This document shows, one piece after another, positions 3,242-28,563 of a stretch of 64,000 nt of DNA. Position 1 is the first letter of the stretch. Each line of letters begins with the position of its first letter. Where the stretch lies: assembly GCA_938017515.1 (NCBI GenBank), contig CALIJJ010000209.1:10108-74107 (forward strand), written 5' to 3'. This DNA comes from an uncultured Pseudanabaenaceae cyanobacterium (GTDB lineage Bacteria; Cyanobacteriota; Cyanobacteriia; PCC-9006; JAAUQQ01). A program made the position numbers and the translations under genes. The notes under the pieces were generated by a model. The model had not been told where the DNA came from. It searched no databases and saw only the letters and a program-made list of their open reading frames with translations.

Positions 3242-3475
3242 GGCACTCAGTTATTAAAAGTCACAGTTGACCAGCATACCGTTCCGGTTTAATGGTCGGC
3301 AAGCGTTTTGCAATCTTTCGGCGATGTTCGTGCGGGATTGAGGGGTAGGGATCATAACTATAGGGGGTGGGCCCAAGCGATCGCCCTGCTTGGAATCAGT
3401 CTGCTCGTTGCCCCCCCGTTAGTGTTAAAACCGTTAGTCCCAGAACCTGTTGTCTCAGAACCGTTAATTCCAGAT

Positions 3476-4858: not shown

Positions 4859-4982
4859 ACGACAGGCCTGCCCTGGCTTTGACCCGATGTCAGGGGGATT
4901 TCCGTTCTTGCGTCGAGGACTGAGAAGTGAAACGGTCTTACTAGGGCGTACCGCCTCTGCTGCATCTGCATCCATCATCACT

Positions 4983-10065: not shown

Positions 10066-10474
10066 TCGCCCCTAAATGGGCGCTCTGCTCTGGGAATGTC
10101 TCGGAATGAGAGCCTTTGGTTGATTTTGCTCCGTTGGCTCATCCCTGGGCCTGCTGTTTCACCCCCATTAAGTATTGAGAGTTATTTCAGTTTCTCAGGA
10201 ATGAGTCAAATTTCTCAGGAATAAATCAAATTTATTCAGCACTTTGTCTACGCTCAAAAGGTCCATTGACTTTTGATTGGGGGGTGATCACCCCCACACC
10301 GTTCTAAAAAATCCTGGGCAATCAGTATTAAAGCTCACTCGGGGTATCTAATGCTTGCCATAGACAGTTCTCCGGGTTAAGCAGTACATTCGAGGCTGCA
10401 AATTTGACCGGCTGTCGCCATGAGCAGGCCTATGAAGGTCCAATGCTTTTGGTAACTGACCAAGGAGGTTCTGC

Positions 10475-11410: not shown

Positions 11411-12357
11411 GCAAGCTGGGCAAAGCGATCGCTTGCCTCTATCAGGGCGCTACGAATCCCTGTTTCTGACATGGAGTGACCGGCATCTCCGACAATCACC
11501 AGCTCTGCTTCGGGCCAGGCTCGGTGCAGGTCCCAGGCTGAGCGCATGGGGCAAACCACATCGTAGCGACCCTGCACAATGACTGCGGGTAAATGGCGGA
11601 TGGTGCCCACATTGCGCAGCAGCTGGTCGTCCGTTTCAAAAAAACCGTTGTTGATGAAGTAGTGGCATTCAATCCGAGCAAAGGCTACTGCGAATTCGTC
11701 TTCGCCAAAGACTTGCATCAGGTTCGCATCGGGTAAGAGCTTGCTGGTGCTGCCCTCCCAGATCGACCAAGCCCGCGCAGCTTCTTGGCGAATTTTGGGG
11801 TCTGGGCTAGTGAGCCGTTTGTAATAGGCTGCCACGAGATTATCCCGTTCCCCCACTGGAATGGGCTTGAGATAGGCTTCCCAGGCATCCGGGAAGATAT
11901 GGCTGGCTCCCTCTTGGTAAAACCATTGGATTTCCTGGCGGCGCAGCATGAAAATACCCCGCAGAATCAGCCCGAGAGAGCGTTCTGGGTGTGTCTGGGC
12001 ATAGGCTAGGGAGAGCGTGCTGCCCCAACTGCCGCCGAAAACCACCCACTGCTCGATCCCCAGATGCTGACGCAACACTTCGATGTCACTGACCAAGTGC
12101 CAAGTGCTGTTGTCGCGTAGTTCTGCGTGGGGGGTACTGTGGCCGCAGCCACGCTGATCGAATTGAATGATGCGCCACTGGCTGGCATCAAAGTATTGTC
12201 GGTAGGAAGGCTGGGATCCTCCGCCGGGCCCGCCGTGCAGGACGATCACCGGGAGGCCGTCGGGATTGCCGCTTTCCTCAAAATAAATCGTGTGCAGGTC
12301 GGAGACCTGAAGCATGCCGCGACCGTAGGGCTCAATAGGGGGATAGAGGTGACGCAT
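11407..12357 (-). CDS. pip: Prolyl aminopeptidase (proline iminopeptidase)
   Basis: Alpha/beta hydrolase with GGSWGS nucleophile elbow. N-terminal MRHLYPPIEPY...HGGPGGG is the classic Pip signature. Confidence 0.85.
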   Translation of the reverse strand: MRHLYPPIEPYGRGMLQVSDLHTIYFEESGNPDGLPVIVLHGGPGGGSQPSYRQYFDASQWRIIQFDQRGCGHSTPHAELRDNSTWHLVSDIEVLRQHLGIEQWVVFGGSWGSTLSLAYAQTHPERSLGLILRGIFMLRRQEIQWFYQEGASHIFPDAWEAYLKPIPVGERDNLVAAYYKRLTSPDPKIRQEAARAWSIWEGSTSKLLPDANLMQVFGEDEFAVAFARIECHYFINNGFFETDDQLLRNVGTIRHLPAVIVQGRYDVVCPMRSAWDLHRAWPEAELVIVGDAGHSMSETGIRSALIEASDRFAQLA

Positions 12358-13614: not shown

Positions 13615-13711
13615 TTGTGTATCCATCTTTTTGGCTCTCAATCCTGAGCGGATGGGAGGTTGTGATGATTTAGCGAAGACAATTCTTTTTTAGACTATTA
13701 TTTTTTAGACA

Positions 13712-14272
13712 ATGATTAAACTCTATGGCGGTGCTCGCAGTCGTGCATCCATTGTTCAGTGGTATTTAGAGGAACTCGAGCTTCCCTACGAGTTTGTCCT
13801 GCTTGACATGGCAGCAGGGGAACATCGCCAAGCGCCCTATACGGACATTAATCCCTTTGGGAAGGTACCGGGTCTGGTAGATGGGGAGGTGACGCTGTTT
13901 GAAACTGGGGCAATTCTGTTGTATCTGGCGGAGCAGTATGGCGAGCTGAAGGGAGCTGACCTTGCAACCCGTTCCATCGCGAACCAGTGGATCCTCTACA
14001 CCAATGCCACATTTGGCCCCGGTGTCTTTGTGGAAGCGACGCGCGACCAAGAGCTGCCGCGCCATATGGCGACCCTAGAAATGATCTTTGCGCAGCAGGC
14101 GTTTGTTGTGGGCGATCGCTTTACAGTTGCAGATGCAGCTTTGGGCTCGATGCTGAACTATGTCCCCATGATGCTGAAGCAAGACCTCAGCGAATACACG
14201 GCGACAACAGCCTATATGCAGCGTATTATGGCGCGACCCGCCTACGCAAAGGTGATGCTGAAGCGTGGCTGA
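13712..14272 (+). CDS. Glutathione S-transferase
   Basis: Thioredoxin-like N-domain (MIKLYGGARSRASIVQWYLEE...) with conserved GST features, plus a helical C-domain. Confidence 0.8.
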   Translation: MIKLYGGARSRASIVQWYLEELELPYEFVLLDMAAGEHRQAPYTDINPFGKVPGLVDGEVTLFETGAILLYLAEQYGELKGADLATRSIANQWILYTNATFGPGVFVEATRDQELPRHMATLEMIFAQQAFVVGDRFTVADAALGSMLNYVPMMLKQDLSEYTATTAYMQRIMARPAYAKVMLKRG

Positions 14273-14416: not shown

Positions 14417-14887
14417 ATGGTTGGCCCCGTTCGTCCGAAATCCCAGTCTTGCCGCTTGATTCCCCACCTGGTCGTCCATGATGCGGAGATGGCGATCGCC
14501 TTCTACCGCAATGCCTTTGGCGCAGAAGAGGTCTATCGCATGCCTACGCCCGAGGGCAGCCAGTTGCTCCACGTCGAAATGCGGGTGGGTGAGCTCTCGA
14601 TCTACCTCTGCGATGAGTTTCCCGAAATGAGCACCCCGTCCCCCCATACGCTCCATGGCTCTCCGGTGACGCTGCATTTGGAGGTTGAGGACGTAGATAA
14701 TTGGTTTGAGCGAGCGATTCGTGCCGGGGCTGCTGTGCTCACCCCCCTGGAGAATATGTTTTGGGGACAGCGCTATGGCAAATTGGTCGATCCCTTTGGC
14801 CATCACTGGTCCATCGCCAGTGCTGTGGACTCTGTTGCCGATGGTGAGATGGGTGAACGTGTAGAACAAGAGATGTTTGCCCTATGA
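14417..14887 (+). CDS. VOC-family (glyoxalase/bleomycin-resistance/PhnB-like) protein
   Basis: Two betaalphabetabetabeta modules with metal-binding His/Glu (HLVVHD, HVEMRV, HHWS). SD gaggagg lies upstream. Confidence 0.75.
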   Translation: MVGPVRPKSQSCRLIPHLVVHDAEMAIAFYRNAFGAEEVYRMPTPEGSQLLHVEMRVGELSIYLCDEFPEMSTPSPHTLHGSPVTLHLEVEDVDNWFERAIRAGAAVLTPLENMFWGQRYGKLVDPFGHHWSIASAVDSVADGEMGERVEQEMFAL

Positions 14888-15918
14888 GCGATCGCGAGCA
14901 TGAGGCTGAACAGGACATTGATGATCCCGTGACAGATGACCCCATGACAGATGACCCCGTGACAGATGACCCGGTCATCAATGAAGAAGATGCTGCTGGG
15001 GTTGACCGTGCGACCATGAGCCCGGATTGGCGTCGTGTCGCACGCCAAGGGAAAAATGACTGGTGGCGCTATGTTCTGGGGATTTTTCTGTTCTTGTTCT
15101 GCTTTCTGCTCGTGGGCGGTATCGGTACAGGCATGGTGCTGTCGGTTAGCTTGCTTGCTGGTGGGGTGCCGGTGGAGGAGTTAACGGTGGCGCTGAAAAA
15201 TTTTTTGATGCGACCCTCGATCGCGGCGTTTGTTGCCAATAATATCTCGTTTGTTTTTGGTGTGTTGGGGCTCATGGTGGTGCTGCCTGTCCTGCATCGC
15301 CGTCCATTTCTGTCGTTATTGGGAGCACGCTTAGGATTCCGGTGGCCCCCTTTTCTTGCCTCCTTTGGGCTTTGGTTTGCCATGCTCTCGATCCTAGGCA
15401 TGCTGGGCTATGCTCTGGAGCCCAATGAATTTATTGTGACGTTTAATCCACGCCTGTGGACCAGTTTGCTGTTGGTGACGATTCCCCTCACCTTTATTCA
15501 GGTGTCCTGTGAAGAGCTATTTTTTCGAGGTTATCTCCTCCAGGGTCTAGGACTGCTGATTCGTTCAAAGATTGTGTTGGCTGTGCTCGGTGCGATTCCG
15601 TTTGCGGTGGTTCATTTCTGGAATCCTGAAATGGATCGAGGCTTGGGCTGGATGGCGTCTTATTATTTGGCTTTTGGCATTGTGGCCAACTGGCTGACGC
15701 TGAAGGAAAACCGATTGGAGCTCGCACTAGGGTTTCACTTAGCGATTAACTATTTTGGAATTCTGATTATCAGCAGTACTGATTCAGTGTTGCCTGCGCC
15801 ATCGATTTTTACGGTGGATGCGACGGGGAGTCCAATGTGGTCGGTGCTGGTGTTTTTGGTCGAATTTGTAATTTTCTATGGTCTCTTTTTCAAGTGGCGC
15901 AGGCGACGGCGTGCGTAA
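14884..15918 (+). CDS. CPBP-family intramembrane metalloprotease (CAAX protease / Abi-like)
   Basis: Polytopic membrane protein with the CPBP motifs EELFFRG and FxxxH. Overlaps the VOC gene by 4 nt (ATGA), so the two are likely co-transcribed. Has an acidic N-terminal DDPVT tandem repeat. Confidence 0.75.
   Translation: MSDREHEAEQDIDDPVTDDPMTDDPVTDDPVINEEDAAGVDRATMSPDWRRVARQGKNDWWRYVLGIFLFLFCFLLVGGIGTGMVLSVSLLAGGVPVEELTVALKNFLMRPSIAAFVANNISFVFGVLGLMVVLPVLHRRPFLSLLGARLGFRWPPFLASFGLWFAMLSILGMLGYALEPNEFIVTFNPRLWTSLLLVTIPLTFIQVSCEELFFRGYLLQGLGLLIRSKIVLAVLGAIPFAVVHFWNPEMDRGLGWMASYYLAFGIVANWLTLKENRLELALGFHLAINYFGILIISSTDSVLPAPSIFTVDATGSPMWSVLVFLVEFVIFYGLFFKWRRRRRA
14920..14980 (+). repeat. 15-bp tandem repeats (about 4 units) encoding DDPVT/DDPMT in the CPBP N-terminus
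   Basis: gatgatcccgtgaca, gatgaccccatgaca, gatgaccccgtgaca and gatgacccggtcatc. Confidence 0.75.
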
Positions 15919-19585: not shown

Positions 19586-20149
19586 AATCTCTGCTTTATA
19601 AAAACTATTTTGGAGATTTAATTCTAGCTGGAACTGCCTAAGCATTGATTAGAAATAACTGTGCTGAAGTCGATTTTCTAAATCTAAATGTTGATCAATC
19701 AAACATCCATAAAAATTGCCCCAGGCTTCTTGCCCAGGGCTAAAAACGTGATAGAAAGTGCTTAAGATCAATCAAACAACTACAGGTATCTTACTAAGGG
19801 TTTGCAGAACAGTCGTAGAACGTGATTAACACCATGGTCTCTCAGGAGACTCTGAGCTTAGGGCTTCACCCTTTATAGTCCTTTCACCGACAATCAACGA
19901 AACAATCGAACCGAAATGAAACAATCGAACCAAATCAAACCTAACGAACTTGAACAATAGGGTGAAAGAAGAGGGAATGAAGGAGCCTCATTCTGTTAGT
20001 GTTTCAGCAGTTCTAGGAACTGGTTTGAGCCTTGACGGGAGACGCGGGTCGTTAGCTCTAGTCCGGTTTTGTATCTCTCTTGCGTCTGAATACAAACTAA
20101 CACCTTCAAGGAGAGGTAAAAGCCTGTTTAAGGAATTGTAAAGAGTGGG

Positions 20150-20962: not shown

Positions 20963-21196
20963 GGCTGTACTCCTTGCGTCATCCTCGGCTAAGCGTTTTC
21001 TGGTCAGCGTTTTGGGGTCAGTATTCTCTGGCAAGCTCCTCTGGATTTAATTATTCACCAGGTCTTACTCACCGAGGGTTAATAAAACGGGGAAAACCGT
21101 AAAGCTCCAGCGCAATTTGTGGGCGATCGCCTGAATCCCCAGAGATTGAACGCTCCTGAGCTGAAGCCCAAGTCAGTGTCCTACGGTTTCAGCAGC

Positions 21197-22399
21197 ATGA
21201 CTCTCTCGATTTTTAGCTCGGTTCCCCGTTTCACGAAAGTACTGTTGCTGACTGGCGTGCTTTCCGTGGGTTGGGGAGGTGCGGCAAAGGCCGATGAGCT
21301 GCTGCGGACCCAGGTGCTGATGCGCGAGAGACCGACCGAGCAAACTCTTGTCGGCCAAGCAACCGTGGCCCAGGATGTTCTTGCCCAGGATATTCTTGCC
21401 CAAGATGTTGTTGCTCAGCAACTGTTAGCCGACTTACCGAACAATAGTCGTGCGCTAGAAGCGCAGACTGCCCTGACTGAGCCTCTGCGTAGTCATGTCC
21501 ACCAGGGGAAGCAGTTATTACGCGCTAGAAAGTATGCAGCAGCAATTGCAAAGTATGACCAAGCCCTAGAGCTCCAGGCAGAGATCCCTGAGGCCTGGTA
21601 CGGTCGCATGTTGGCCCAAAAAGCTCTGGGACAGTCCAAGGAAGCTGTGTTTAGCTACTACGCCTATGCTGAAGCATCGCGAATTGTCGGAGATTTGGAC
21701 ACCGCGCTGGCGGGTTTCGAATGGTTTTTAGCGCGCAGACCGGACTTTTTTGAAGCGGCCTTGGGCAAAAGCATCACCCTGGAGCAGATGGGCAATCCAG
21801 CGGCAGCCCTGCGTAGCTTTGCGATGACGATTGAGATCGATCCCCAGGATCCACGGGGCTGGGAGTACCAGGGTGATCTGATGGCGCGTCTGGAGGACTA
21901 CGAGCGTGCGGCCCAGAGCTATGAGCAGTGGGTGGCGTTGGCCCCCGAGAGTCCTGAGGCCCTGTGGAGCCATGGTCATGTGTTGATTCAGCTGAATCGC
22001 TATGAAGCGGCTCTGGAGCGCTATGTTCGTTTGGCGCAACTTCAGCCTGAGGAGGCGGAACCCCAGCAGCGCCAGGGCTGGATTTTGCTTCAGTTAGGTC
22101 GGTTTCGGGAAGCGGTTGTCCGTTATGATGCGGCGATCGCCTTCGATCCCTCCAAGGCTGCGAACTGGCAGGGGAAGGGCTATGCCCTGGCTCAGCTGAA
22201 CCAGTATGATACTGCCTTAGAAAATCTGACGCAGGCGGTCAAGCTCAATCCCCAGGACGCCTGGAGTTGGCAGCTGCGGGCAGAGATGCTCGAACAATTG
22301 GGCCGTCGTGAGGAGGCCAAGGAGAGTCTGCGCCAGGTGGATATTCTGCGGGAAGTTCAGGTCTTGTCGCGCTCCGAAGATGGGCGATCTTTGGCCTGA
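21197..22399 (+). CDS. TPR-repeat protein with N-terminal signal peptide
   Basis: Signal-like N-terminus (MTLSIFSSVPRFTKVLLLTGVLSVGWGGAAKA). Carries an AQDVLAQDILAQDVVAQ repeat, then at least 8 TPR units (W-LG-Y-A-F-P-type 34-mers). Confidence 0.75.
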   Translation: MTLSIFSSVPRFTKVLLLTGVLSVGWGGAAKADELLRTQVLMRERPTEQTLVGQATVAQDVLAQDILAQDVVAQQLLADLPNNSRALEAQTALTEPLRSHVHQGKQLLRARKYAAAIAKYDQALELQAEIPEAWYGRMLAQKALGQSKEAVFSYYAYAEASRIVGDLDTALAGFEWFLARRPDFFEAALGKSITLEQMGNPAAALRSFAMTIEIDPQDPRGWEYQGDLMARLEDYERAAQSYEQWVALAPESPEALWSHGHVLIQLNRYEAALERYVRLAQLQPEEAEPQQRQGWILLQLGRFREAVVRYDAAIAFDPSKAANWQGKGYALAQLNQYDTALENLTQAVKLNPQDAWSWQLRAEMLEQLGRREEAKESLRQVDILREVQVLSRSEDGRSLA

Positions 22400-22596
22400 T
22401 AAAACCGAGCAGAGCTACGGGTCCAGGTGGTGGCAAAGGCAATAAAAGGAACTAGGGTAAACACACCACCTGCCACCAACGCGTGGTCTTGCAACCAAGG
22501 GCTGGACATCATCACACCAATACCCAGCCCACAATAGATCAACCCAGCCACGGGAATGCCGATGATCAGCGCTGCCATCTTGTCATTGTCGTCCAT
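22357..22596 (-). CDS. Small two-TM membrane protein, possible
   Basis: 79-aa ORF with two hydrophobic helices. Overlaps the TPR gene 3' end by 43 nt. No homology recognised. Confidence 0.3.
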   Translation of the reverse strand: MDDNDKMAALIIGIPVAGLIYCGLGIGVMMSSPWLQDHALVAGGVFTLVPFIAFATTWTRSSARFYQAKDRPSSERDKT

Positions 22597-22696
22597 GGAT
22601 TAGCCTCGACGTTTCCCACCTTCATCTTAAGGGCCGAGCTTCAGTCTGTTCTTTACAATAGGGGGGCTATAGAACTGTTCTTATCAAAACTGTCTG

Positions 22697-23152
22697 ATGA
22701 ATGCCATGGCCGATACTGCTGCGCATACCCCTCCTCAAAAGCCATTTCTGGCCACCGTTCGTGAGTTAGTGAGAGCCTACCAAGCCTTCTCTTCGTACTC
22801 AGAGCATTTTGTGCGGCAGTATGAGCTGACTCCGGCTCAATTTGATGTCATTGCAACCTTGGGCCATACCCAGGGCATGAGTATGGGAGAGATTGGCGAG
22901 AAAACGCTGATTACGAAAGGGACGCTGACGGGAGTGGTCGATCGCCTCAAGAAAAAAGATCTCGTGACCCGAGATATTCCCCCCGAAAATCGACGCTCCG
23001 TGATCGTCAAACTGACGTCCCAGGGGGAAGAACTCTTCCAGCAGGTGTTTCCGGCCCACCTTGCGGATATGGAAACCCACTTTGAAGGCTTTGATGCTTC
23101 GGAGCTGGAGCTGATGCGTGTGATGCTGAATCGATTGCGCAAGGCCTTTTAG
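22697..23152 (+). CDS. MarR-family transcriptional regulator
   Basis: Winged HTH (LTPAQFDVIATLGHTQGMSMGEIGEKTLITKGTLTGVVDRLKKKDLVTR). Contains no cysteine. Confidence 0.85.
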   Translation: MNAMADTAAHTPPQKPFLATVRELVRAYQAFSSYSEHFVRQYELTPAQFDVIATLGHTQGMSMGEIGEKTLITKGTLTGVVDRLKKKDLVTRDIPPENRRSVIVKLTSQGEELFQQVFPAHLADMETHFEGFDASELELMRVMLNRLRKAF

Positions 23153-23283
23153 CCGATCGCAATCGCTCTGCGGGGCTCGCTCCTGCCTTGTACGAGGGAC
23201 TGGGACTACGCGATAGACTGCGCGACGGATTGCTCGACCCGTTTTTTCATGGCATGGGTTGCGGTTTTGAAAGACCAATGCTA

Positions 23284-23329
23284 ATTTCGACATCAGATAG
23301 TTCTAGTTAAGACTATCTGATATCGAAAT
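23284..23329. promoter_or_regulatory. 18-bp inverted repeat with 10-bp spacer, candidate operator upstream of the CDGSH/NDH-2 operon
   Basis: atttcgacatcagatagt ... actatctgatatcgaaat (17/18 complementary). Sits 30 nt upstream of the ATG at 23360, after the MarR gene. Confidence 0.45.
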
Positions 23330-23359
23330 GAATTTAGCCGATTTTGAAGGAGGATATCG

Positions 23360-23536
23360 ATGGCTCAGCAACCCAAACCCCTCGTGCTGGCCCTAGAGGC
23401 TGGAACGCACTGGCTCTGTACCTGCGGGCAGTCTACGAATGCCCCTTATTGCGATGGCAGCCATAAGGGGACAGCTTTTCAGCCCCTCGCACTGGAGTTA
23501 GATACGCCCAAGGAAGTCATTATCACTGCGCCATAA
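23360..23536 (+). CDS. CDGSH iron-sulfur domain protein (58 aa)
   Basis: Sub-threshold ORF MAQQPKPLVLALEAGTHWLCTCGQSTNAPYCDGSHKGTAFQPL... with the C-x-C-x(n)-CDGSH 2Fe-2S motif. SD gaaggagga lies upstream. Its stop overlaps the next start (TAATG). Confidence 0.7.
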   Translation: MAQQPKPLVLALEAGTHWLCTCGQSTNAPYCDGSHKGTAFQPLALELDTPKEVIITAP

Positions 23537-24972
23537 TGACCGTTCCTACCAAGGTAATGAAGCATGAAAGACTGCAACTCCCGCGAGTTGTCATCTTGGG
23601 TGCTGGTTTTGCAGGGCTTGAGGTTGCGCAACAGCTCGCCCAAAAAGCGTTATGCGTCACCCTGATTGATCGCCAAGATCATCACACCTTTCAGCCCTTG
23701 CTGCACCAAGTGGTCACTGCTGAGTTAGAGGCTCAGCAGATTTGTTATCCGATCCGTTCAGCCCTGCGCCGGGCTAGGAATGTCCGATTTGTTCAGGCAG
23801 AAGTCCATCATATTCAGACTCGGCAGCGCCAAGTCAAGACGTCTGCTGGAGGGTTTGACTATGATTTTCTCGTCATTGCGACAGGGGCTACGTCTCACTT
23901 AGAGATACTGCCTGGGTCTCCCAGCGCGGCGGCTCCCAATTCTGTGTTTGGGCTCAAAACAATTGGGGATGCGATCGCGCTCCGCCATCACCTCGCCAAG
24001 GTCTTAGCACGGGCTCATCGGCCGATTAGCGCTGCTCCTGACCTATTCGCGCCTACTCAATTTGAGAGTGTCCAATCTGCTTCTACTCAAGCTGCCCATA
24101 CAACAGTAGAGTCGATGGCTGACCAGACCGTTGTCATTGTTGGTGGCGGGGCCACGGGCGTCGAATTGGCCGGAGCAATCGCGGGATGGTGTAAGCGATC
24201 GCGGCATAACGCAGCTGCATGCTTGCCCCACCCAGCCAAGAAACTCGTGCTGCTCCATTCCAGGGACAGGCTTCTACCTGGCTTTCGTCCGCGTTTGCAG
24301 CGGTATGCCCTGAAGCAGCTCCAGGCCATGGGCGTTGATGTCCATTGTCTGAAACGTGTGCAGCTTCTCTCCTCCCAAGGTGTTCAGCTATCAGATGGTC
24401 AATTGATCCCGACCAAAACGGTGATTTGGACCACAGGAGTGCGGGGAAATCCACCGGCTTGGAAGGGAGAGGGTCCTACAACACATCGACTGCCGGTGCG
24501 CCCCACCCTCCAGTTATTGGAGGATGACCACATCTACGCTGTAGGGGACGTAGCTGCGGGTACCTCTGAAGCCGAGCCCTGGCCGATGCTGGCTTCCGTC
24601 GCTGTTCAGCAGGGGCGTTTCGCAGCACGCAATATTCGGCGTCAGGCCCAGGGTCAACGTCTGAAACCATTTCGAATGCGCCATTGGGGGGCCATGGCCA
24701 TACTGGGTCGCCATGCTGCGGTTGTCCAACTTGGACCCTTGACCCTCACGGGGGTCGTGGCTTGGCTGATCTGGTTGGCTGTGCATCTCATGTTGTTGCG
24801 AGGGATGCGCCAGCGCCTGACAACACTGCTGCGCTGGAGTGAATCGTACCGGTATCGTTCTCCCCGAGTTCGTTCGTCCGTCTCACCGAGCATGACCGCC
24901 TCCATGAGCATGACCACCTCAGCGAGCAGCCGCCCACAGCCTTGTTCCCATCCCATTTTTTGCGCCAAATAG
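23536..24972 (+). CDS. FAD-dependent NAD(P)H:quinone oxidoreductase (type II NADH dehydrogenase-like)
   Basis: Two Rossmann dinucleotide motifs (VVILGAGFAGLE and VVIVGGGATGVELAGA). The overall NDH-2 / pyridine nucleotide-disulfide oxidoreductase layout is present. Confidence 0.8.
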   Translation: MTVPTKVMKHERLQLPRVVILGAGFAGLEVAQQLAQKALCVTLIDRQDHHTFQPLLHQVVTAELEAQQICYPIRSALRRARNVRFVQAEVHHIQTRQRQVKTSAGGFDYDFLVIATGATSHLEILPGSPSAAAPNSVFGLKTIGDAIALRHHLAKVLARAHRPISAAPDLFAPTQFESVQSASTQAAHTTVESMADQTVVIVGGGATGVELAGAIAGWCKRSRHNAAACLPHPAKKLVLLHSRDRLLPGFRPRLQRYALKQLQAMGVDVHCLKRVQLLSSQGVQLSDGQLIPTKTVIWTTGVRGNPPAWKGEGPTTHRLPVRPTLQLLEDDHIYAVGDVAAGTSEAEPWPMLASVAVQQGRFAARNIRRQAQGQRLKPFRMRHWGAMAILGRHAAVVQLGPLTLTGVVAWLIWLAVHLMLLRGMRQRLTTLLRWSESYRYRSPRVRSSVSPSMTASMSMTTSASSRPQPCSHPIFCAK

Positions 24973-25000
24973 TTCTAATTAGTACAAAATAGACATAGCC

Positions 25001-25477
25001 ATGAAACTCACCATTCGCGACATCAATCCTCAGTCCTCGTCCAGAACGCTGCGCTTGGCCAAGCCGACGATTGACCTCGATACAGCGCCCTACGCCATTA
25101 CCTTGCTGCGGGTGAGCTTGGGGCTGCTTTGTCTCGCCCATGGATGCCTCAAGGTGTTCACGTTCACATTGCCAGGGACTGCACAGTTCTTCGCCAGTGT
25201 GGGCCTGCCTGGATTTATGGCCTATCCCGTGGCGATCGCAGAAGGGCTCGGCGGTCTGTTGTTGCTCGCTGGGATTTACAGCCGCTGGGTGGCACTGGCG
25301 CTGTTTCCCATTTTGTTCGTGGCGACGTTTAAGGTGCATGGGGCCAGCGGTTGGTTGTTCACCAACGAAGGGGGCGGCTGGGAATTTCCGGCCTTGTTTG
25401 CGATCGCCACCCTCGTTCAATTCCTCCTCGGCGATGGAGCCTTTGCCCTCACCTCGCGGCTGATGCCCAAGCGATAG
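25001..25477 (+). CDS. DoxX-family membrane protein
   Basis: About 150 aa with 3-4 TM helices and the DoxX-like LLRVSLGLLCLAHGCLK region. Confidence 0.75.
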   Translation: MKLTIRDINPQSSSRTLRLAKPTIDLDTAPYAITLLRVSLGLLCLAHGCLKVFTFTLPGTAQFFASVGLPGFMAYPVAIAEGLGGLLLLAGIYSRWVALALFPILFVATFKVHGASGWLFTNEGGGWEFPALFAIATLVQFLLGDGAFALTSRLMPKR

Positions 25478-25518
25478 GAGGCAAATGAAAGATCGTAGAG
25501 CATGTCCTACAGGAGCGC

Positions 25519-26301
25519 ATGATGGCCAAACTTCCCGCACTGTTCATTTCCCACGGCGCACCGGACCTGCCTATTCGCACGGGGCCAACCCAGGACTTCC
25601 TGCGGCAGGTGCCCCACACGATGCCAACGCCGCGAGCAATCCTAGTCATTACAGCGCATTGGTTGACCGCTCAAGCCGCCGTCAGCACTACCCCTAATCC
25701 GCGAACCCTGTATGACTTTGGAGGCTTTCCAGCGGAACTGCATCGCCTGAGCTATCCGGCGACCGGCAATGGGGCGATCGCCCAAGAGATTGCTCAGGTC
25801 TTGTCTGAGGCGGAGATGCCAGTGCAAATGCACCCCAACCGAGGCTTTGACCACGGCACCTGGACGCCGCTAAGTTTGGCCTATCCCCAGGCGGATATTC
25901 CCGTGATTCAGATGTCTGTGCAACCTAGGCTGGGGCCAGAACACCATTGGCAGTTGGGACAGGCGATCGCCCCACTACGCGATCAAGGGATCCTCATCCT
26001 TGGCAGCGGCGGTGCCACCCATAACCTCGGTGCATTTGCGTCTGACTACGATGCATCACCACCGGACTGGGTGGTGGCCTTTGATGATTGGTTGGCCCAA
26101 ACCATCCAATCCAACGATCGCCACAGCCTACTCAACTATCGACAATGCGCCCCCTTCGCGGTGCCAAACCATCCCAGTGAGGAACATCTCCTGCCGTTAT
26201 TTGTAGCCCTAGGGGCTGGCGATGGGGATAAACCGGGACGGCAACTCCATCGTGGGTTTACCTACGGTGTCTTCAGCATGGCAGCGTTTGCCTTTGATTA
26301 G
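25519..26301 (+). CDS. Class III extradiol ring-cleavage dioxygenase (LigB/YgiD/DOPA 4,5-dioxygenase family)
   Basis: N-terminus MAKLPALFISHGAPDL and conserved His ligands (ITAHW, DHGTW, GSGGATHNL) are typical of YgiD-like enzymes. Confidence 0.8.
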   Translation: MMAKLPALFISHGAPDLPIRTGPTQDFLRQVPHTMPTPRAILVITAHWLTAQAAVSTTPNPRTLYDFGGFPAELHRLSYPATGNGAIAQEIAQVLSEAEMPVQMHPNRGFDHGTWTPLSLAYPQADIPVIQMSVQPRLGPEHHWQLGQAIAPLRDQGILILGSGGATHNLGAFASDYDASPPDWVVAFDDWLAQTIQSNDRHSLLNYRQCAPFAVPNHPSEEHLLPLFVALGAGDGDKPGRQLHRGFTYGVFSMAAFAFD

Positions 26302-26366
26302 ATCGTGAGTCAAATGATTCGTGATTTAACCCAGTTGTAATTTCAAACATGTAGGAGCAACAGACG

Positions 26367-27371
26367 ATGGCCCTTGGACAACTCATCGATGGTCAATGGA
26401 CAACAGACTGGACCGAGCGTGGCGAGTCTGGAGAGTTCCAGCGGATGCCGACGCAATTTCGAGATTGGGTGACGGCGGATGGCTCCAGCGGTTTTAAGGC
26501 AGAAGCAGGTCGCTATCACTTGTATGTTTCCCTGGGCTGTCCCTGGGCCCATCGGACGCTGTTGTTGCGATCGCAAAAGGGGCTCGAAGATGCCATTAGC
26601 ATATCGATTGTGGACCCGGTCATTAGCAATCAGGGCTGGCAATTTTCTGAGCGTTCCGGCTGCATCCCCGATAGCCTTTACCAGGCCGACTACCTCTGGC
26701 AGATCTACGTCAGAGCCTATCCAACCTACAGCGGGCGGGTGACGGTGCCGGTGCTGTGGGATAAACAGACACAGACCATTATCAATAATGAATCGCGTCA
26801 GATTATTCAGATGTTGAACCGTGAGTTCAATGCCTTTTCTGCCGTCCCGGAGCGAGATTTTTACCCAGCGGCATTGCAGGAGGCGTGCGATCGCGCCATC
26901 GATGCCATCTATCCCAGTATCAATAATGGGGTTTACCGCAGTGGCTTTGCCTCATCCCAAGCCGCCTATACTCAAGCCGTGACCGCGCTCTTCCAGGCAC
27001 TGGATTACTGGGAGGGGATGCTGAGCCAACAGCGGTATGTCTGCGGAGACGCGATAACCCTTGCGGACTGGTGCCTGTTTCCGACACTGTTTCGGTTTGA
27101 TCTGGCCTACCACGGTCTGTTTAAGTGCAACCTCAAACGGCTCGTGGATTATCCCAACCTGTGGCGCTACTGCCGCGAACTGTATCAGCAACCCGGTGTT
27201 GCCCAGTGGTGTAGCGCTGAGCATGTTAAGCAGCTCTACTATGCTGGATTGCCAGAGCTGAATCCCACCGGCATTGTTCCGCTAGGGCCAGCGATTGACT
27301 TTGCTGATCGCATTGCAGAAGAAGCTCGGCAGGAGCCACCGCTGGGCGCGATCGCTCCTGCCCTGGCTTAA
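26367..27371 (+). CDS. Xi-class glutathione transferase / glutathionyl-hydroquinone reductase (YqjG/PcpF-like)
   Basis: YVSLGCPWAHRTLL CPxA active-site motif at residue ~58, at ~330 aa total. This is diagnostic of Xi-class GS-hydroquinone reductases. Confidence 0.8.
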   Translation: MALGQLIDGQWTTDWTERGESGEFQRMPTQFRDWVTADGSSGFKAEAGRYHLYVSLGCPWAHRTLLLRSQKGLEDAISISIVDPVISNQGWQFSERSGCIPDSLYQADYLWQIYVRAYPTYSGRVTVPVLWDKQTQTIINNESRQIIQMLNREFNAFSAVPERDFYPAALQEACDRAIDAIYPSINNGVYRSGFASSQAAYTQAVTALFQALDYWEGMLSQQRYVCGDAITLADWCLFPTLFRFDLAYHGLFKCNLKRLVDYPNLWRYCRELYQQPGVAQWCSAEHVKQLYYAGLPELNPTGIVPLGPAIDFADRIAEEARQEPPLGAIAPALA

Positions 27372-28075
27372 CGGAGACCCGACTTAACCGCGCTACCCCG
27401 CTGGCCAAACAGAACTTTTTTGGCTTCTTCGGTCATGGTCGGAGTGGTCGAGACTGCCTGACCTTTTTCGTAGGCTCGAATCACGGCAGGGCGCGCCTGC
27501 ATGGCCTGAAACCAACGTTGGAGGTCGGGGAAGTCTGCCAGGGTTTGCCCCTGTTTTTCGTAGGGGACGATCCAGGGATAGCATGCCATGTCGGCAATGG
27601 AGTAGTCCCCGGCGATGAATTCTTGCCCTACCAACTGTTTGTTCAGCACACCGTAGAGTCGATGGGTTTCATCAACGTAGCGCTTGATGGCGTAATCGAT
27701 GGGGGTGGGAGCGTATTGGCTGAAGTGGTGGTTTTGTCCCAGCATGGGCCCTAGACCGCCGACCTGCCAGAAGAGCCATTCGTTGACGCGGGTTTGCGAT
27801 CGCAGGTCTGTCGGCCAAAACTGACCCGTTTTCTGGGCCAGATAGAGCAAAATTGCGCCGGACTCAAATACGGAAATCGGCTCATCGCCCTCTGCAGGCG
27901 CATGATCCACGAGGGCTGGCATGCGGTTGTTTGGCGAAATTTTGAGGAAGTCGGGCTTGAACTGATCCCCTGCTCCAATATTGACGGGACTGATGCGGTA
28001 GTCGAGCCCAGCTTCTTCCAGAAAAATTGTGATCTTGTGACCGTTTGGTGTGGGCCAGTAGTAGAGGTCCAGCAT
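27368..28075 (-). CDS. Nu-class glutathione S-transferase (YfcG/YghU-like)
   Basis: MLDLYYWPTPNGHKITIFLEEAGLDYRISPVNIGAGDQFKPDFLKISPNNRMPALVDH closely parallels E. coli YfcG. The track ORF starts at 28183 and the ATG at 28075 fits the family. Confidence 0.8.
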   Translation of the reverse strand: MLDLYYWPTPNGHKITIFLEEAGLDYRISPVNIGAGDQFKPDFLKISPNNRMPALVDHAPAEGDEPISVFESGAILLYLAQKTGQFWPTDLRSQTRVNEWLFWQVGGLGPMLGQNHHFSQYAPTPIDYAIKRYVDETHRLYGVLNKQLVGQEFIAGDYSIADMACYPWIVPYEKQGQTLADFPDLQRWFQAMQARPAVIRAYEKGQAVSTTPTMTEEAKKVLFGQRGSAVKSGLR

Positions 28076-28563
28076 GGCAACGTACTCAATGACAGCTTGA
28101 AGAATCCTTCTTAGCTTAGTCTTTAATTCGAAAAAGTGGAAATAAAGTACAATTGTTGCTGATCGTTCAATGACGGCAAACAATTCCGACGGAGTGTTGC
28201 AGGCTGCGATCGCTGCTGGTGTGCATGTCTAGTGGTTGTCGTTGGCAATATTGATCCTCCGGGGCCGCTCACCTGCTCTTGTTGTGATTGGAGTCAAGGT
28301 GCTCCGAAGTTTCCGAAGTGAGAGAAGAGCTTCTGGAGAGGAAATGGCTGGCTTAAGGTCTTGCTTGGCTAATATTCCGATGACGTGAAAGGGTCTGATG
28401 CTTTACCTTTTAGGTCTATCGAAAGGGCTGATATCCACCTAACCTTAAGAAATAAAGTAGATACCATTGTCTCCATGTCTTTATCGTTACAATTTTTACA
28501 CCAGTAAAACTCAGGCCGCATTTCAACTCAGTGCATTAGCACGATTTGTGCGTCAATCTTTCT

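What the first reader, a model, noticed from the sequence alone, without database searches (positions are those of the whole stretch)
22697..28183. MarR-headed cluster resembling a quinone/catechol detoxification regulon
Nearly all genes of this cluster are co-directional, in this order:
- MarR regulator
- CDGSH Fe-S protein
- type-II NADH:quinone oxidoreductase
- DoxX
- LigB/YgiD-type extradiol dioxygenase
- Xi-class GST (glutathionyl-hydroquinone reductase, CPWA motif)
- Nu-class YfcG-like GST, convergent

In Bacillus subtilis the MarR/DUF24 regulators MhqR, YodB and CatR control exactly these kinds of genes. These include the DoxX-like MhqP/CatD, the ring-cleavage dioxygenases MhqA/MhqE/CatE and quinone reductases. 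They act in response to quinones and catechols. The cyanobacterial MarR here has no cysteine at all, so any sensing would not be thiol-based. Together with the ergothioneine genes elsewhere in the window, this is a coherent candidate electrophile/quinone stress module.
Basis: partly seen in the sequence, partly recalled or inferred. Interest (0 to 1): 0.55.

Follow-up and report, generated by a model that had tools for sequence, protein, structure and literature searches.

The report
Conserved MarR-controlled quinone-stress gene cluster
A cyanobacterial repressor gene sits beside five redox and ring-opening enzyme genes that carry its conserved binding sites, forming a probable quinone-stress defence unit like known bacterial ones but run by a regulator family that I could not find described.

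Summary
All seven ORFs and the inverted repeat are real and correctly placed. Comparative genomics turns the juxtaposition into a predicted regulon.

- **Regulator family.** The cysteine-free MarR belongs to a tightly conserved family. Identity is 60-80% across cyanobacteria and 50-59% in Betaproteobacteria.
- **Operator.** Members are accompanied by one palindrome, ATAGTTCTA-N2-TAGAACTAT. In the 64-kb window the three best matches lie just upstream of marR, the CDGSH gene and doxX.
- **Synteny.** marR-LigB-Xi GST is the cyanobacterial core. CDGSH-NDH-2-DoxX is an add-on module. The full six-gene order and three-operator layout recur in a Trichormus MAG contig (Nostocales).
- **Not supported.** The convergent Nu-class GST and the distant ergothioneine genes have no operator, and the Nu GST has poor synteny.
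- **Family placement.** The regulator is not an MhqR orthologue. Its sequence match to MhqR is weak and the operator is different.
- **Function, inferred.** A quinone or hydroquinone response is inferred from E. coli, where hydroquinone induces yqjF and ygiD through YhaJ. It is also inferred from Synechocystis Slr0605, which protects against benzoquinone.

Verdict: a new variant of a known kind, of moderate interest.

The parts
22675..22692 (.). Degenerate operator copy (CTGTTCTTATCAAAACTG) 5 nt upstream of the marR ATG. Candidate autoregulatory site.
   Evidence: Third-best position-weight-matrix score in the whole 64-kb window, 16.2 bits. Relatives carry a clearer box at the same place. The Trichormus contig L144 has one at 17.2 bits.
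22697..23152 (+). marR: a cysteine-free MarR-family repressor. An alternative start at 22706 gives the 148-aa form called in sister contigs.
   Evidence: PF01047, 53.9 bits. AlphaFold model with pLDDT 89 and a canonical MarR fold. 2541 homologues, 60-80% identical in cyanobacteria. No conserved Cys.
23259..23287 (+). Promoter-like hexamers TTGCGG (23259-23264), a 17-nt spacer, then TAATTT (23282-23287). They lie just upstream of operator 1. Inferred, not mapped.
   Evidence: Assigned by eye from the alignment with relatives, which show TTGACA/TTGTCA, 16-17 nt, TAnnnT, followed within a few nt by the box. The tool's strict sigma-70 scan did not call it.
23284..23329 (.).
   Evidence: The arms form a perfect palindrome in sister-strain contigs L081 and L082. 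The outer arms are specific to this species; only the centre is conserved across taxa.
23298..23315 (.). Operator 1 (TAGTTCTAGTTAAGACTA), the conserved core, 45 nt upstream of the CDGSH start codon.
   Evidence: 2 mismatches to TAGTTCTANNTAGAACTA. 24.4 bits, second-best in the window. The same box sits between marR and the next gene in 19 of the 31 closest cyanobacterial loci.
23360..23536 (+). 58-aa single-domain CDGSH [2Fe-2S] protein. Its stop codon overlaps the NDH-2 start (TAATG), which suggests translational coupling.
   Evidence: PF09360; sequence. CDGSH genes recur next to marR orthologues in 6 cyanobacterial and 6 proteobacterial loci.
23536..24972 (+). Type-II NAD(P)H:quinone oxidoreductase (NDH-2). 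Compared with relatives it has an insertion at about residues 163-197 and a Ser-rich C-terminal tail.
   Evidence: Pyr_redox_2, 159 bits. Matches 9MQY at E 1e-46 through the C-terminal membrane helices. Cyanobacterial homologues at 44-53% identity sit in marR-(CDGSH)-NDH2-DoxX clusters.
24970..24987 (.). Operator 2 (TAGTTCTAATTAGTACAA). It overlaps the NDH-2 stop codon and lies 14 nt upstream of the doxX ATG, flanked by TTGCGC (24960-24965) and TACAAA (24983-24988).
   Evidence: Best score in the window, 27.0 bits; 2 mismatches. The same position is occupied in L015, L016, L020 and L144 (23.9 bits).
25001..25477 (+). DoxX-family membrane protein.
   Evidence: PF07681, 68 bits. In E. coli the DoxX gene yqjF is adjacent to yqjG.
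25519..26301 (+). LigB-superfamily extradiol dioxygenase of the YgiD / 4,5-DOPA dioxygenase type.
   Evidence: PF02900, 120 bits. NF007914 at 201.8 bits, below its cut-off of 233. PDB 8IN2 and 2PW6. Present next to marR in 20 of 30 close cyanobacterial loci.
26367..27371 (+). Xi-class GST, a glutathionyl-hydroquinone reductase.
   Evidence: CPWAHR motif. 6GZF at E 5.5e-105 and YqjG at E 8e-97. Present in 14 of 30 close cyanobacterial loci.
27368..28075 (-). Nu-class YfcG-like GST, convergent, its 3' end overlapping gstXi by 4 nt. A neighbour, not a demonstrated regulon member.
   Evidence: NF010579 at 274.6 bits, below its cut-off of 332. No operator upstream. The only true homologues near marR are 5.7 and 6.8 kb away, in L026 and L008; the GSTnu counts include cross-hits of the GSTnu profile on Xi GST genes (L023, L031).

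Best explanation
This is a conserved repressor-operator unit.

**Repressor and sites.** The cysteine-free MarR dimer binds an 18-20-bp palindrome, consensus ATAGTTCTA-N2-TAGAACTAT, at three places:
- in front of its own gene (22675-22692, a degenerate copy);
- at the start of the CDGSH/NDH-2 transcription unit (23298-23315);
- in front of doxX-ligB-gstXi (24970-24987).
The second and third sites overlap promoter-like elements, so bound repressor would block transcription.

**Signal.** A small redox-active aromatic compound, such as a benzoquinone, hydroquinone or catechol, is proposed to bind non-covalently. The pocket would lie between helices alpha1', alpha2 and alpha5, and binding would release the repressor.

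**Induced proteins and their proposed roles:**
- NDH-2, possibly with its translationally coupled CDGSH [2Fe-2S] partner, reduces quinones by two electrons.
- DoxX is a membrane protein of a family linked to quinone-dependent redox reactions.
- The Xi GST strips glutathione from glutathionyl-hydroquinone adducts.
- The LigB/YgiD-type dioxygenase opens catecholic rings.

**Shown here:** gene identities, synteny, operator conservation and operator placement.

**Inferred:** DNA binding by this protein, repression, the identity of the inducer and the enzyme substrates.
For: **Operator**
- TAGTTCTANNTAGAACTA with up to 3 mismatches gives 3 window hits against 0.08 expected.
- The matrix top 3 of 64 kb fall at the 5' ends of doxX, the CDGSH gene and marR.
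- In 80 marR loci from one genome per species there are 74 sites, 66 of them within 1 kb of marR. Shuffles give about 5.
- An unbiased exact scan of metagenomes found 59 sites, 33 of them next to a MarR-family gene.
- These MarRs share the recognition-helix motif K-x-T-L-T-G/S even at 21-30% identity.
- Residues 69-80 are conserved (the same majority residue in at least 85% of sequences) in both the cyanobacterial and the proteobacterial orthologues.

**Synteny**
- LigB occurs in 20 of 30 close cyanobacterial loci and Xi GST in 14 of 30, always on the marR strand.
- The identical six-gene order is seen in Trichormus (L144) and in L145.
- The same three-operator layout recurs there.

**No thiol switch**
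- The protein has 0 Cys, and no Cys column is conserved in the family.
- The nearest solved MarR folds are ligand-binding sensors: MftR, BpsR, PecS and HpaR.

**Function by analogy with experiments**
- E. coli yqjF (DoxX, adjacent to yqjG) and ygiD are induced by hydroquinone or catechol through YhaJ (PMC5031710).
- Synechocystis Xi GST Slr0605 has glutathionyl-hydroquinone reductase activity and protects against benzoquinone (PMC11673678).
- MhqR senses quinones without a thiol (PMC6798810, PMC12893000).
- The CDGSH protein mitoNEET passes electrons from reduced flavin to ubiquinone (PMC9490426).
Against: - No expression, binding or ligand data exist for this protein or for any member of its family in the literature I could search.
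- The site upstream of marR is degenerate in this genome, at 16 bits.
- The promoter hexamers are assigned by eye. The strict promoter scan called none.
- Operator 2 lies only 14 nt from the doxX ATG, so the transcript would be nearly leaderless or the site would act as a roadblock.
- Betaproteobacterial orthologues control cytochrome b561 and YceI lipocalins instead. That system is linked to lipid-peroxyl-radical defence (PMC9113575), so the shared signal may not be a free quinone.
- The physiological substrate of YgiD-type dioxygenases is unknown.
Confidence: 0.6

Rival explanations
1. The same repressor-operator unit exists, but it answers an endogenous membrane signal rather than external quinones or catechols. 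Candidates are an oxidised or damaged prenylquinone (plastoquinone) or a lipid-peroxidation product arising under photo-oxidative stress. On this reading NDH-2, CDGSH and DoxX would service the membrane quinone pool, and the Xi GST and LigB would remove breakdown products.
For: - Orthologues at 50-59% identity with the same recognition helix and operator head cytochrome b561-YceI-YceI operons in Betaproteobacteria (24 and 26 of 36 loci).
- That operon (lcoA-bcnA-bcnB) protects against lipid peroxyl radicals, and YceI homologues bind ubiquinone-8 (PMC9113575).
- NDH-2 and DoxX are membrane-associated.
- More distant MarRs with the same box control ergothioneine-importer-like and PNPOx-like antioxidant genes.
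Against: - The cyanobacterial core (LigB plus Xi GST) is soluble and acts on small aromatic compounds.
- E. coli homologues respond to externally added hydroquinone (PMC5031710).
- No data tie the cyanobacterial genes to light or plastoquinone state.
Confidence: 0.25
2. The cluster is a substrate-induced catabolic or biosynthetic route for a catecholic metabolite, for example ring cleavage of L-DOPA or a homoprotocatechuate-like compound, possibly towards betalamic-acid-type pigments. The MarR would sense the substrate as HpaR does, rather than acting as a stress defence.
For: - The best NCBIfam match of the MarR is HpaR (52.8 bits).
- HpaR, BpsR and NadR are among its nearest folds.
- The dioxygenase is closest to 4,5-DOPA dioxygenases.
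- An Anabaena cylindrica homologue makes betalamic acid in vitro (PMC7533325).
Against: - The HpaR score is far below its cut-off of 121.
- No downstream catabolic genes (dehydrogenase, hydrolase, isomerase, transporter) accompany the dioxygenase in any of the loci.
- The constant partner is a glutathionyl-hydroquinone reductase, which is a detoxification enzyme.
- Proteobacterial orthologues control non-catabolic genes.
Confidence: 0.1
3. The juxtaposition is fortuitous. The inverted repeat is a terminator, an RNA hairpin or a repeat element rather than a protein-binding site.
For: - The 46-bp repeat follows marR and could fold as a hairpin.
- Its outer arms are species-specific.
- The terminator and promoter scans gave nothing decisive.
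Against: - The conserved part is the centre of the repeat. It is conserved in sequence, not just in pairing.
- It has no T-run.
- It recurs upstream of genes, including in tandem 21 bp apart upstream of marR in 13 proteobacterial loci.
- Sites are enriched about 15-fold over shuffles.
- Rfam finds no RNA family.
- Synteny holds from Leptolyngbya-like taxa to Nostocales.
Confidence: 0.03

Closest known systems
MhqR regulon of Bacillus subtilis and Staphylococcus aureus (MarR-type quinone-sensing repressor)
   Same: - A MarR-family repressor heads or adjoins ring-cleavage dioxygenase and quinone-handling genes.
- A palindromic operator overlaps the transcription start.
- Sensing works without a cysteine, by quinone binding in a pocket (PMC6798810, PMC12893000).
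- A DoxX-like protein (MhqP) belongs to the B. subtilis regulon; this point is from my own knowledge.
   Different: - The regulator is not an orthologue. It scores 36 bits (E 6e-8) against S. aureus MhqR (9QDR/9SMZ), ranks 22nd among solved MarRs, and MhqR is absent from the Foldseek top 50.
- The operator is TATCTCGAA-ATCGAAATA, against ATAGTTCTA-N2-TAGAACTAT here.
- The MhqR dioxygenases are VOC/glyoxalase type, not LigB.
- The MhqR reductases are azoreductases and nitroreductases, not NDH-2.
- The low-molecular-weight thiol is bacillithiol there and glutathione here.
Escherichia coli YhaJ regulon (yqjF-yqjG, ygiD, yhaK and others)
   Same: - The effector families are the same: DoxX (YqjF) immediately upstream of the Xi GST YqjG, and the LigB-type YgiD.
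- yqjF and ygiD are induced by hydroquinone, catechol and 1,2,4-trihydroxybenzene (PMC5031710).
   Different: - The regulator is a LysR-type activator with a T-N11-A box, not a MarR repressor.
- The genes are scattered on the chromosome.
- There is no NDH-2 or CDGSH member.
OseR (Streptococcus suis) and SPD_1645 (S. pneumoniae): MarR repressors of the ergothioneine importer
   Same: - The published OseR palindrome AAAATAGTCAA-N4-TTGACTATTTT shares the frame ATAGT-N10-ACTAT with the box found here (PMC12341727).
- Metagenomic MarR-ABC ATPase-permease/OpuAC operons of the same architecture carry the exact box.
- The theme is antioxidant defence. In the pneumococcus the operon is tied to quinone stress (PMC9732360).
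   Different: - These MarRs are only about 21-25% identical to the window MarR.
- OseR uses a Cys35 thiol switch, and the window protein has no Cys.
- The targets are transporters, not enzymes.
lcoA-bcnA-bcnB (cytochrome b561 plus YceI lipocalins) of Betaproteobacteria
   Same: In Gallionella, Aquitalea, Chromobacterium and related genomes this operon is headed by an orthologue of the window MarR. The orthologue is 50-59% identical and has the same recognition helix and operator.
   Different: - The effector genes are entirely different, and the described role is defence against lipid peroxyl radicals (PMC9113575).
- That paper does not describe the regulator.
- The operators occur as a tandem pair upstream of marR.
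YodB / QsrR / CatR (DUF24, HxlR-type quinone sensors)
   Same: They control quinone reductases, DoxX-like CatD and the dioxygenase CatE in response to quinones and catechol.
   Different: They belong to a different protein family (HxlR type) and sense through a conserved N-terminal cysteine. Neither feature is present here.

Membership tests
MarR family transcription factors | Winged helix-turn-helix MarR domain and the six-helix dimer-forming fold | tested here: met
   PF01047 at 53.9 bits, cut-off 24.6. AlphaFold model with pLDDT 89 and helices a1-a6 plus a b-wing. The top 50 Foldseek hits are all MarR proteins.
MarR family transcription factors | A 16-20-bp (pseudo)palindromic operator near the regulated promoters, often including the regulator's own | tested here: met
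   Comparative only. The box ATAGTTCTA-N2-TAGAACTAT sits at marR, the CDGSH gene and doxX. It is conserved next to orthologues. Binding itself was not tested.
MhqR (Firmicutes quinone-sensing MarR) | Orthology to B. subtilis or S. aureus MhqR | tested here: not met
   S. aureus MhqR (9QDR/9SMZ) scores 36.2 bits, E 5.8e-8, rank 22 of the solved MarRs. It is not among the 50 best Foldseek matches. JGI's label 'MhqR' on relatives is an automated name.
MhqR (Firmicutes quinone-sensing MarR) | The 9-9-bp MhqR operator TATCTCGAA-ATCGAAATA | tested here: not met
   The conserved box here is ATAGTTCTA-N2-TAGAACTAT, against the published MhqR box (PMC6798810). The resemblance of the outer arm (ATTTCGA) is species-specific and not conserved.
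MhqR (Firmicutes quinone-sensing MarR) | Cysteine-independent sensing through a quinone pocket (F11, F39, E43, H111 in S. aureus MhqR) | tested here: inconclusive
   There is no Cys and no conserved Cys column. F49 (a2) and H121 (a5) are conserved across phyla, at positions plausibly equivalent to F39 and H111. No residue-level alignment to 9QDR could be obtained.
MhqR (Firmicutes quinone-sensing MarR) | Derepression by methylhydroquinone, benzoquinone or catechol | not testable with these tools
   Needs EMSA or ITC and expression data.
YodB/QsrR/CatR (DUF24, HxlR type) | HxlR-type domain and a conserved redox-active N-terminal Cys | tested here: not met
   Pfam gives MarR families only. The protein has zero Cys.
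E. coli YhaJ hydroquinone regulon | Effector genes yqjF (DoxX), yqjG (Xi GST) and ygiD (LigB) | tested here: met
   Homologues of all three are in the cluster. The yqjF-yqjG adjacency was verified in K-12.
E. coli YhaJ hydroquinone regulon | LysR-type activator YhaJ with a T-N11-A box | tested here: not met
   The regulator here is a MarR. The window's only LysR gene that I identified (10475-11410) is 12 kb away.
Xi-class GST / glutathionyl-hydroquinone reductase | Catalytic Cys in the CPWA motif and full-length homology to YqjG and PcpF | tested here: met
   SLGCPWAHRT aligns with the same motif of 6GZF and YqjG. E 5.5e-105 and 8e-97. Activity was not tested.
Type-II NADH dehydrogenase (NDH-2) | Two dinucleotide-binding GxGxxG folds plus a C-terminal membrane-anchoring region | tested here: met
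   GAGFAG and GGGATG motifs. Pyr_redox_2 at 159 bits. Aligns to 9MQY up to residue 438. NDH2_C scores 23.8 bits, below its cut-off of 27.7.
CDGSH iron-sulfur domain proteins | Motif C-x-C-x2-(S/T)-x3-P-x-C-D-G-(S/A/T)-H | tested here: met
   CTCGQSTNAPYCDGSH. PF09360 at 40 bits, cut-off 29.5.
YgiD / 4,5-DOPA extradiol dioxygenase (LigB superfamily) | Equivalog-level match to NF007914 | tested here: not met
   201.8 bits against a cut-off of 233. Family-level homology is clear: PF02900 at 120 bits; 8IN2 at E 5e-56; YgiD (2PW6) at E 1e-48.
Nu-class GST (YfcG) | Equivalog-level match to NF010579 | tested here: not met
   274.6 bits against a cut-off of 332. YfcG-like, not an equivalog.
OseR-type MarR (ergothioneine-uptake repressor) | Cys35 thiol switch and adjacency to EgtUV | tested here: not met
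   No Cys and no transporter in the cluster. Only the operator frame ATAGT-N10-ACTAT is shared (PMC12341727).

The most novel reading that the evidence does not exclude
The window MarR may belong to a broad MarR clade found in several phyla. This clade would have kept one DNA-reading head (K-x-T-L-T-G/S) and one operator frame (ATAGT-N10-ACTAT). It would have been rewired repeatedly onto different antioxidant modules:
- ergothioneine import in low-GC (probably Firmicutes) contigs;
- PNPOx-like flavoproteins;
- LigB plus Xi GST, with or without CDGSH, NDH-2 and DoxX, in cyanobacteria;
- cytochrome b561 plus YceI lipocalins in Betaproteobacteria.

The cysteine-free cyanobacterial and proteobacterial branch would share a conserved a1/a2/a5 pocket. 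It would sense one common ligand derived from membrane quinones or lipid oxidation. Small CDGSH proteins would be dedicated redox partners in that response.
Probability: 0.3. Interest if true: 0.65.

Novelty: new variant of a known kind. Interest (0 to 1): 0.45.

Why it matters
**For cyanobacterial redox regulation.** A 2026 review of cyanobacterial redox regulators lists only one MarR-type factor, ChlR (PMC13421787). If the prediction holds, it adds a second MarR-type redox regulator with a defined operator. Its regulon could then be computed in any genome.

**For poorly understood gene families.** It gives a physiological context to bacterial single-domain CDGSH proteins, to DoxX, to YgiD-type dioxygenases and to one NDH-2 clade. 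All would be tied to quinone or hydroquinone stress.

**For regulatory evolution.** The same effector trio (DoxX, Xi GST, YgiD) is under a LysR activator in E. coli and a MarR repressor in cyanobacteria. That makes a clean case of convergent regulatory wiring.

**For testing.** The operator shared with the regulator of the betaproteobacterial lcoA-bcnA operon suggests an immediately testable candidate regulator for that system. I found no regulator described for it.

**For application.** A cysteine-free, ligand-gated repressor with a compact operator could also serve as a quinone or hydroquinone biosensor part.

Tried and rejected
- **Greedy longest-ORF gene calling** picked antisense shadows, for example 22799-23293(-) instead of marR. 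I replaced it with a codon-usage scorer.
- **Strict promoter and terminator scan** gave nothing in the intergenic regions. The promoter hexamers are therefore by-eye inferences.
- **Rfam** on the whole window gave no hits, so an RNA-element reading was dropped.
- **Residue-level comparison with S. aureus MhqR** was not possible. PDB ids are not accepted by protein comparison, and the paper's alignments are images.
- **Literature search for the operator sequence** returned only unrelated DNMT3 oligonucleotides.
- **Literature search for a MarR regulating YceI or cytochrome b561** found none.
- **Site at 19619-19636** (3 mismatches, 9.5 bits). It lies between convergent genes with no gene to regulate. 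I treat it as probably chance, although it is conserved in sister strains.
- **Nu-class GST as a regulon member.** Rejected for lack of an operator and of synteny.
- **Ergothioneine genes as part of the module.** The genes are confirmed but there is no operator.
- **Organism name.** Not recoverable. The closest named relative is a Leptolyngbyaceae MAG.
- **Resemblance of the repeat's outer arm (ATTTCGA...) to the MhqR box.** Considered and rejected, because it is not conserved outside this species.

Full report
**1. Observation**

Pfam and NCBIfam confirm each family.

- A 151-aa MarR protein without any cysteine.
- A 58-aa CDGSH protein with the motif CTCGQSTNAPYCDGSH. Its stop codon overlaps the start of the next gene (TAATG).
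- A 478-aa NDH-2.
  - It has the motifs GAGFAG and GGGATG.
  - Its best solved relative is 9MQY, E 1e-46, aligned through the C-terminal membrane helices.
- A DoxX protein.
- A LigB-superfamily dioxygenase closest to the 4,5-DOPA dioxygenases and E. coli YgiD. NF007914 scores 201.8 bits, below its cut-off of 233.
- A Xi-class GST with the CPWAHR motif. YqjG matches at E 8e-97.
- A convergent YfcG-like GST. NF010579 scores 274.6 bits, below its cut-off of 332.

The inverted repeat 23284-23301 / 23312-23329 is real. EgtB and EgtD lie at 3308-5969. Rfam finds nothing in the window. Two contigs of the same species, with 99% identical MarR, show the same gene order.

**2. The regulator family and its operator**

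The MarR has 2541 homologues at E <= 1e-10. The listed best hits come from cyanobacteria and are 60-80% identical, with a mean column identity of 77% in a 29-sequence alignment.

A scan of one genome per species returned 80 loci. About 45 are cyanobacterial. About 35 are mostly Betaproteobacteria (Gallionella, Aquitalea, Chromobacterium, Sulfuricella and others) at 50-59% identity.

Reading the intergenic DNA of these loci revealed one palindrome, consensus ATAGTTCTA-N2-TAGAACTAT. It lies between marR and the next gene, and in a looser form upstream of marR.

*In the loci*
- With up to 3 mismatches there are 74 sites in 1.23 Mb of loci.
- 66 of them are within 1 kb of marR. Shuffled sequence gives about 5.

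*In the window*
- The pattern gives 3 hits against 0.08 expected.
- A position weight matrix built from the cyanobacterial sites puts its three best scores of the whole 64 kb at three gene starts:
  - 24970-24987, 27.0 bits, 14 nt before doxX and overlapping the NDH-2 stop codon;
  - 22675-22692, 16.2 bits, 5 nt before marR.

Those arms are conserved only in this species (a perfect palindrome in L081 and L082).

In 13 proteobacterial loci two boxes sit 21 bp apart upstream of marR.

*Unbiased test*
- I scanned the metagenome collection for the exact 18 specified bases and found 59 places. 33 have a MarR-family gene within about 1 kb.
- Eight are true orthologues. They are followed by LigB-Xi GST, DoxX, CDGSH or cytochrome b561-YceI-YceI.
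- The others are MarRs only 21-32% identical. They still share the recognition-helix motif K-x-T-L-T-G/S and the wing DxRR.
- Residues 69-80 of the window protein (KTLITKGTLTGV) are conserved in cyanobacterial and proteobacterial orthologues alike, with the same majority residue in at least 85% of each group.

Two things vary together: the box and a particular MarR reading head. That is the main argument that this protein binds this box. Binding itself was not tested.

**3. Synteny**

Among the 30 closest cyanobacterial loci with enough flanking DNA:

| Gene near marR | Loci (of 30) |
|---|---|
| LigB | 20 |
| Xi GST | 14 |
| DoxX | 4 |
| CDGSH | 4 |
| NDH-2 | 1 |

All lie on the marR strand, and 22 of 30 loci hold at least one of them.

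The core is marR-LigB-Xi GST. CDGSH, NDH-2 and DoxX form an add-on module. In L039 the two modules each have their own MarR paralogue.

The reverse test starts from the NDH-2. Its nearest homologues are only about 54% identical.
- A Trichormus contig (L144) has marR-CDGSH-NDH2-DoxX-LigB-Xi GST, the window's exact order.
- L145 has the same order, with an uncalled CDGSH gene.
- A Kaiparowitsia contig (L143) has marR-NDH2-DoxX.
- A 40%-identical non-cyanobacterial NDH-2 has an unrelated context.

In L144 the three best matrix scores again fall before doxX, marR and the CDGSH gene. In L145 the same three positions score best, though weakly.

The Nu-class GST is different. It has no operator. True homologues near marR occur only in L026 and L008, at 5.7 and 6.8 kb. 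The other GSTnu hits are cross-hits on Xi GST genes.

**4. Promoter context (inference)**

Relatives show TTGACA/TTGTCA, 16-17 nt, TAnnnT, and then the box a few nucleotides downstream. This is the position where a repressor would occlude the transcription start.

In the window the equivalent elements are TTGCGG (23259-23264), 17 nt, then TAATTT (23282-23287), 10 nt before operator 1. Operator 2 lies between TTGCGC (24960-24965) and TACAAA (24983-24988).

The tool's strict scan did not call these, and no transcript ends are known.

**5. How it probably works**

The protein has no cysteine, and the family has no conserved Cys column. A thiol switch of the OhrR, QsrR or OseR type is therefore excluded.

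The AlphaFold model (pLDDT 89) is a canonical MarR. Its nearest solved folds are sensors of small aromatic ligands: MftR and PecS (urate), BpsR (6-hydroxynicotinate), HpaR and NadR.

Outside the DNA-binding head, 20-odd residues are conserved across both phyla. They include R22, Y28, F31, S35 and R40 in a1; Q48, F49 and D50 in a2; and F114, F118, P119 and H121 in a5. These are the helices that form the ligand pocket in S. aureus MhqR and other MarRs (PMC12893000).

I therefore propose ligand-gated derepression.

The likely ligand class is inferred from what the regulated proteins do elsewhere.
- E. coli yqjF (DoxX, directly upstream of the glutathionyl-hydroquinone reductase gene yqjG) and ygiD are induced by hydroquinone, catechol and 1,2,4-trihydroxybenzene via YhaJ (PMC5031710).
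- The Synechocystis Xi GST Slr0605 has glutathionyl-hydroquinone reductase activity and is needed for benzoquinone tolerance (PMC11673678).
- NDH-2 enzymes reduce quinones with NAD(P)H.
- The CDGSH protein mitoNEET moves electrons from reduced flavin to ubiquinone or oxygen (PMC9490426).
- A cyanobacterial YgiD homologue cleaves the catechol ring of DOPA (PMC7533325).

Together these suggest a sequence of steps:
1. two-electron reduction of quinones;
2. removal of glutathione from quinone-glutathione adducts;
3. ring opening.

**6. Rivals**

- **Endogenous signal (0.25).** The betaproteobacterial orthologues govern cytochrome b561-YceI-YceI.
  - This is the lcoA-bcnA-bcnB system, linked to lipid peroxyl radicals and ubiquinone binding (PMC9113575).
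  - The shared signal may therefore be an endogenous membrane quinone or a lipid-oxidation product rather than an external quinone.
- **Catabolic or pigment route (0.1).** An HpaR-style substrate-induced pathway for a catecholic metabolite is possible but lacks any downstream pathway genes.
- **Chance or RNA hairpin (0.03).** Essentially excluded.

**7. Comparison with known systems**

It works like the MhqR regulon of Firmicutes but is not a member.
- S. aureus MhqR (9QDR/9SMZ) scores only 36 bits, rank 22, and is not in the Foldseek top 50.
- The MhqR box TATCTCGAA-ATCGAAATA is different (PMC6798810).
- The effector families differ.
- JGI's 'MhqR' names on relatives are automated.

It is not a DUF24 regulator. 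Its effector set matches the E. coli YhaJ regulon, but the regulator type differs.

Its operator frame, ATAGT-N10-ACTAT, matches the published palindrome of OseR, the Cys-switch MarR that represses ergothioneine uptake in S. suis (PMC12341727). About a dozen metagenomic MarR-ABC ATPase-permease/OpuAC operons carry the exact box.

The window's own egtBD genes have no box.

I found no description of this cyanobacterial regulator or of the box in the searchable literature. A 2026 review lists ChlR as the only MarR-type redox regulator of cyanobacteria (PMC13421787).

**8. Verdict**

  - The regulon and the operator are strongly supported by comparative evidence, and non-thiol sensing is consistent with it.
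  - The quinone signal is plausible but inferred.
  - Membership of the Nu GST and the ergothioneine genes, and MhqR-type identity, are not supported.
- Novelty: a new variant of a known kind.
- Interest: 0.45.

Noticed in passing
L084-L142 (metagenome contigs); box positions as listed: The exact box ATAGTTCTANNTAGAACTAT occurs 59 times in the metagenome collection, and 33 of the sites are next to a MarR-family gene. About a dozen are low-GC MarR-ABC ATPase-permease/OpuAC operons with the architecture of the ergothioneine importer operon (OseR/EgtUV). About seven are MarR plus a PNPOx-like flavoprotein. These MarRs are only 21-32% identical to the window protein but share the K-x-T-L-T-G/S recognition helix.
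   Followed up: partly
L041, L047-L051, L053-L056, L058-L068, L073, L074, L077-L080 (positions about 9930-12000): Betaproteobacterial orthologues of the MarR (50-59% identity) are followed by cytochrome b561 and one or two YceI lipocalin genes, the lcoA-bcnA-bcnB arrangement. In 13 loci they are preceded by two operator boxes 21 bp apart. The paper describing that operon does not name a regulator.
   Followed up: partly
window 23360-23538; L015, L016, L020, L025, L035, L039, L038, L045, L051, L053, L061, L079, L126, L130, L144, L145: A small single-domain CDGSH iron-sulfur protein is a recurrent member of this MarR's neighbourhood in both cyanobacteria and Proteobacteria. This holds with or without NDH-2. 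In the window its stop codon overlaps the NDH-2 start (TAATG). This gives a functional hint for bacterial CDGSH proteins.
   Followed up: partly
L039 7106-12600: A Nostocales MAG has two MarR paralogues in tandem. One heads CDGSH-NDH2-DoxX and the other heads Xi GST-LigB. The two modules that are fused under one MarR in the window exist as separate units there.
   Followed up: no
window 13680-13697: The fifth-best matrix score in the window (6.4 bits, AATTCTTTTTTAGACTAT) lies 15 nt upstream of a 186-aa GST (13712-14272). That gene is followed by a glyoxalase/VOC-family protein (14417-14887) and an Rce1-like protease (14884-15918). It is too weak to call, but it sits in front of MhqA/E-like gene types.
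   Followed up: no
window 19619-19636: A weak operator-like site (3 mismatches, 9.5 bits) sits in a 565-nt gap between the convergent Nmad3-like and NIF3 genes. It is conserved in both sister-strain contigs. There is no gene for it to regulate and no Rfam hit in the gap.
   Followed up: partly
window 3308-5969: EgtB (DinB_2 plus FGE-sulfatase) and EgtD (Methyltransf_33) are adjacent ergothioneine biosynthesis genes. No operator-like site lies near them.
   Followed up: yes
window 27368-27371: The Xi GST and Nu GST genes converge and their 3' ends overlap by 4 nt. No terminator can lie between them, so transcription of one must run into the other.
   Followed up: no
window 23291 and 23311; L081 about 7013; L082 about 10606: Strain-level polymorphism in the repeat. 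The sister strains have T at the window's C23291, which makes the 18-nt arms perfectly complementary. L082 has A at the window's G23311, which brings the right half-site one base closer to the consensus.
   Followed up: yes
window 24022-24126 and 24850-24972 (NDH-2 residues about 163-197 and 440-478): Compared with its relatives (415-450 aa) and with 9MQY, this NDH-2 carries an insertion between the two Rossmann halves and a Ser/Thr/Met-rich C-terminal tail. The tail ends inside operator 2.
   Followed up: no
window 22357-22596 (-): A 79-aa predicted membrane protein with no Pfam match lies divergent from marR. It overlaps the 3' end of the TPR gene (21119-22399). It is called as an 84-aa gene in the sister contigs.
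   Followed up: no
L144 8980-11013; L145 811-2970: In the Trichormus contig L144 and in contig L145 (organism not named) the cassette is flanked by TetR regulators and further detoxification-type genes (GST, PNPOx-like, glyoxalase). This suggests larger stress-gene neighbourhoods.
   Followed up: no
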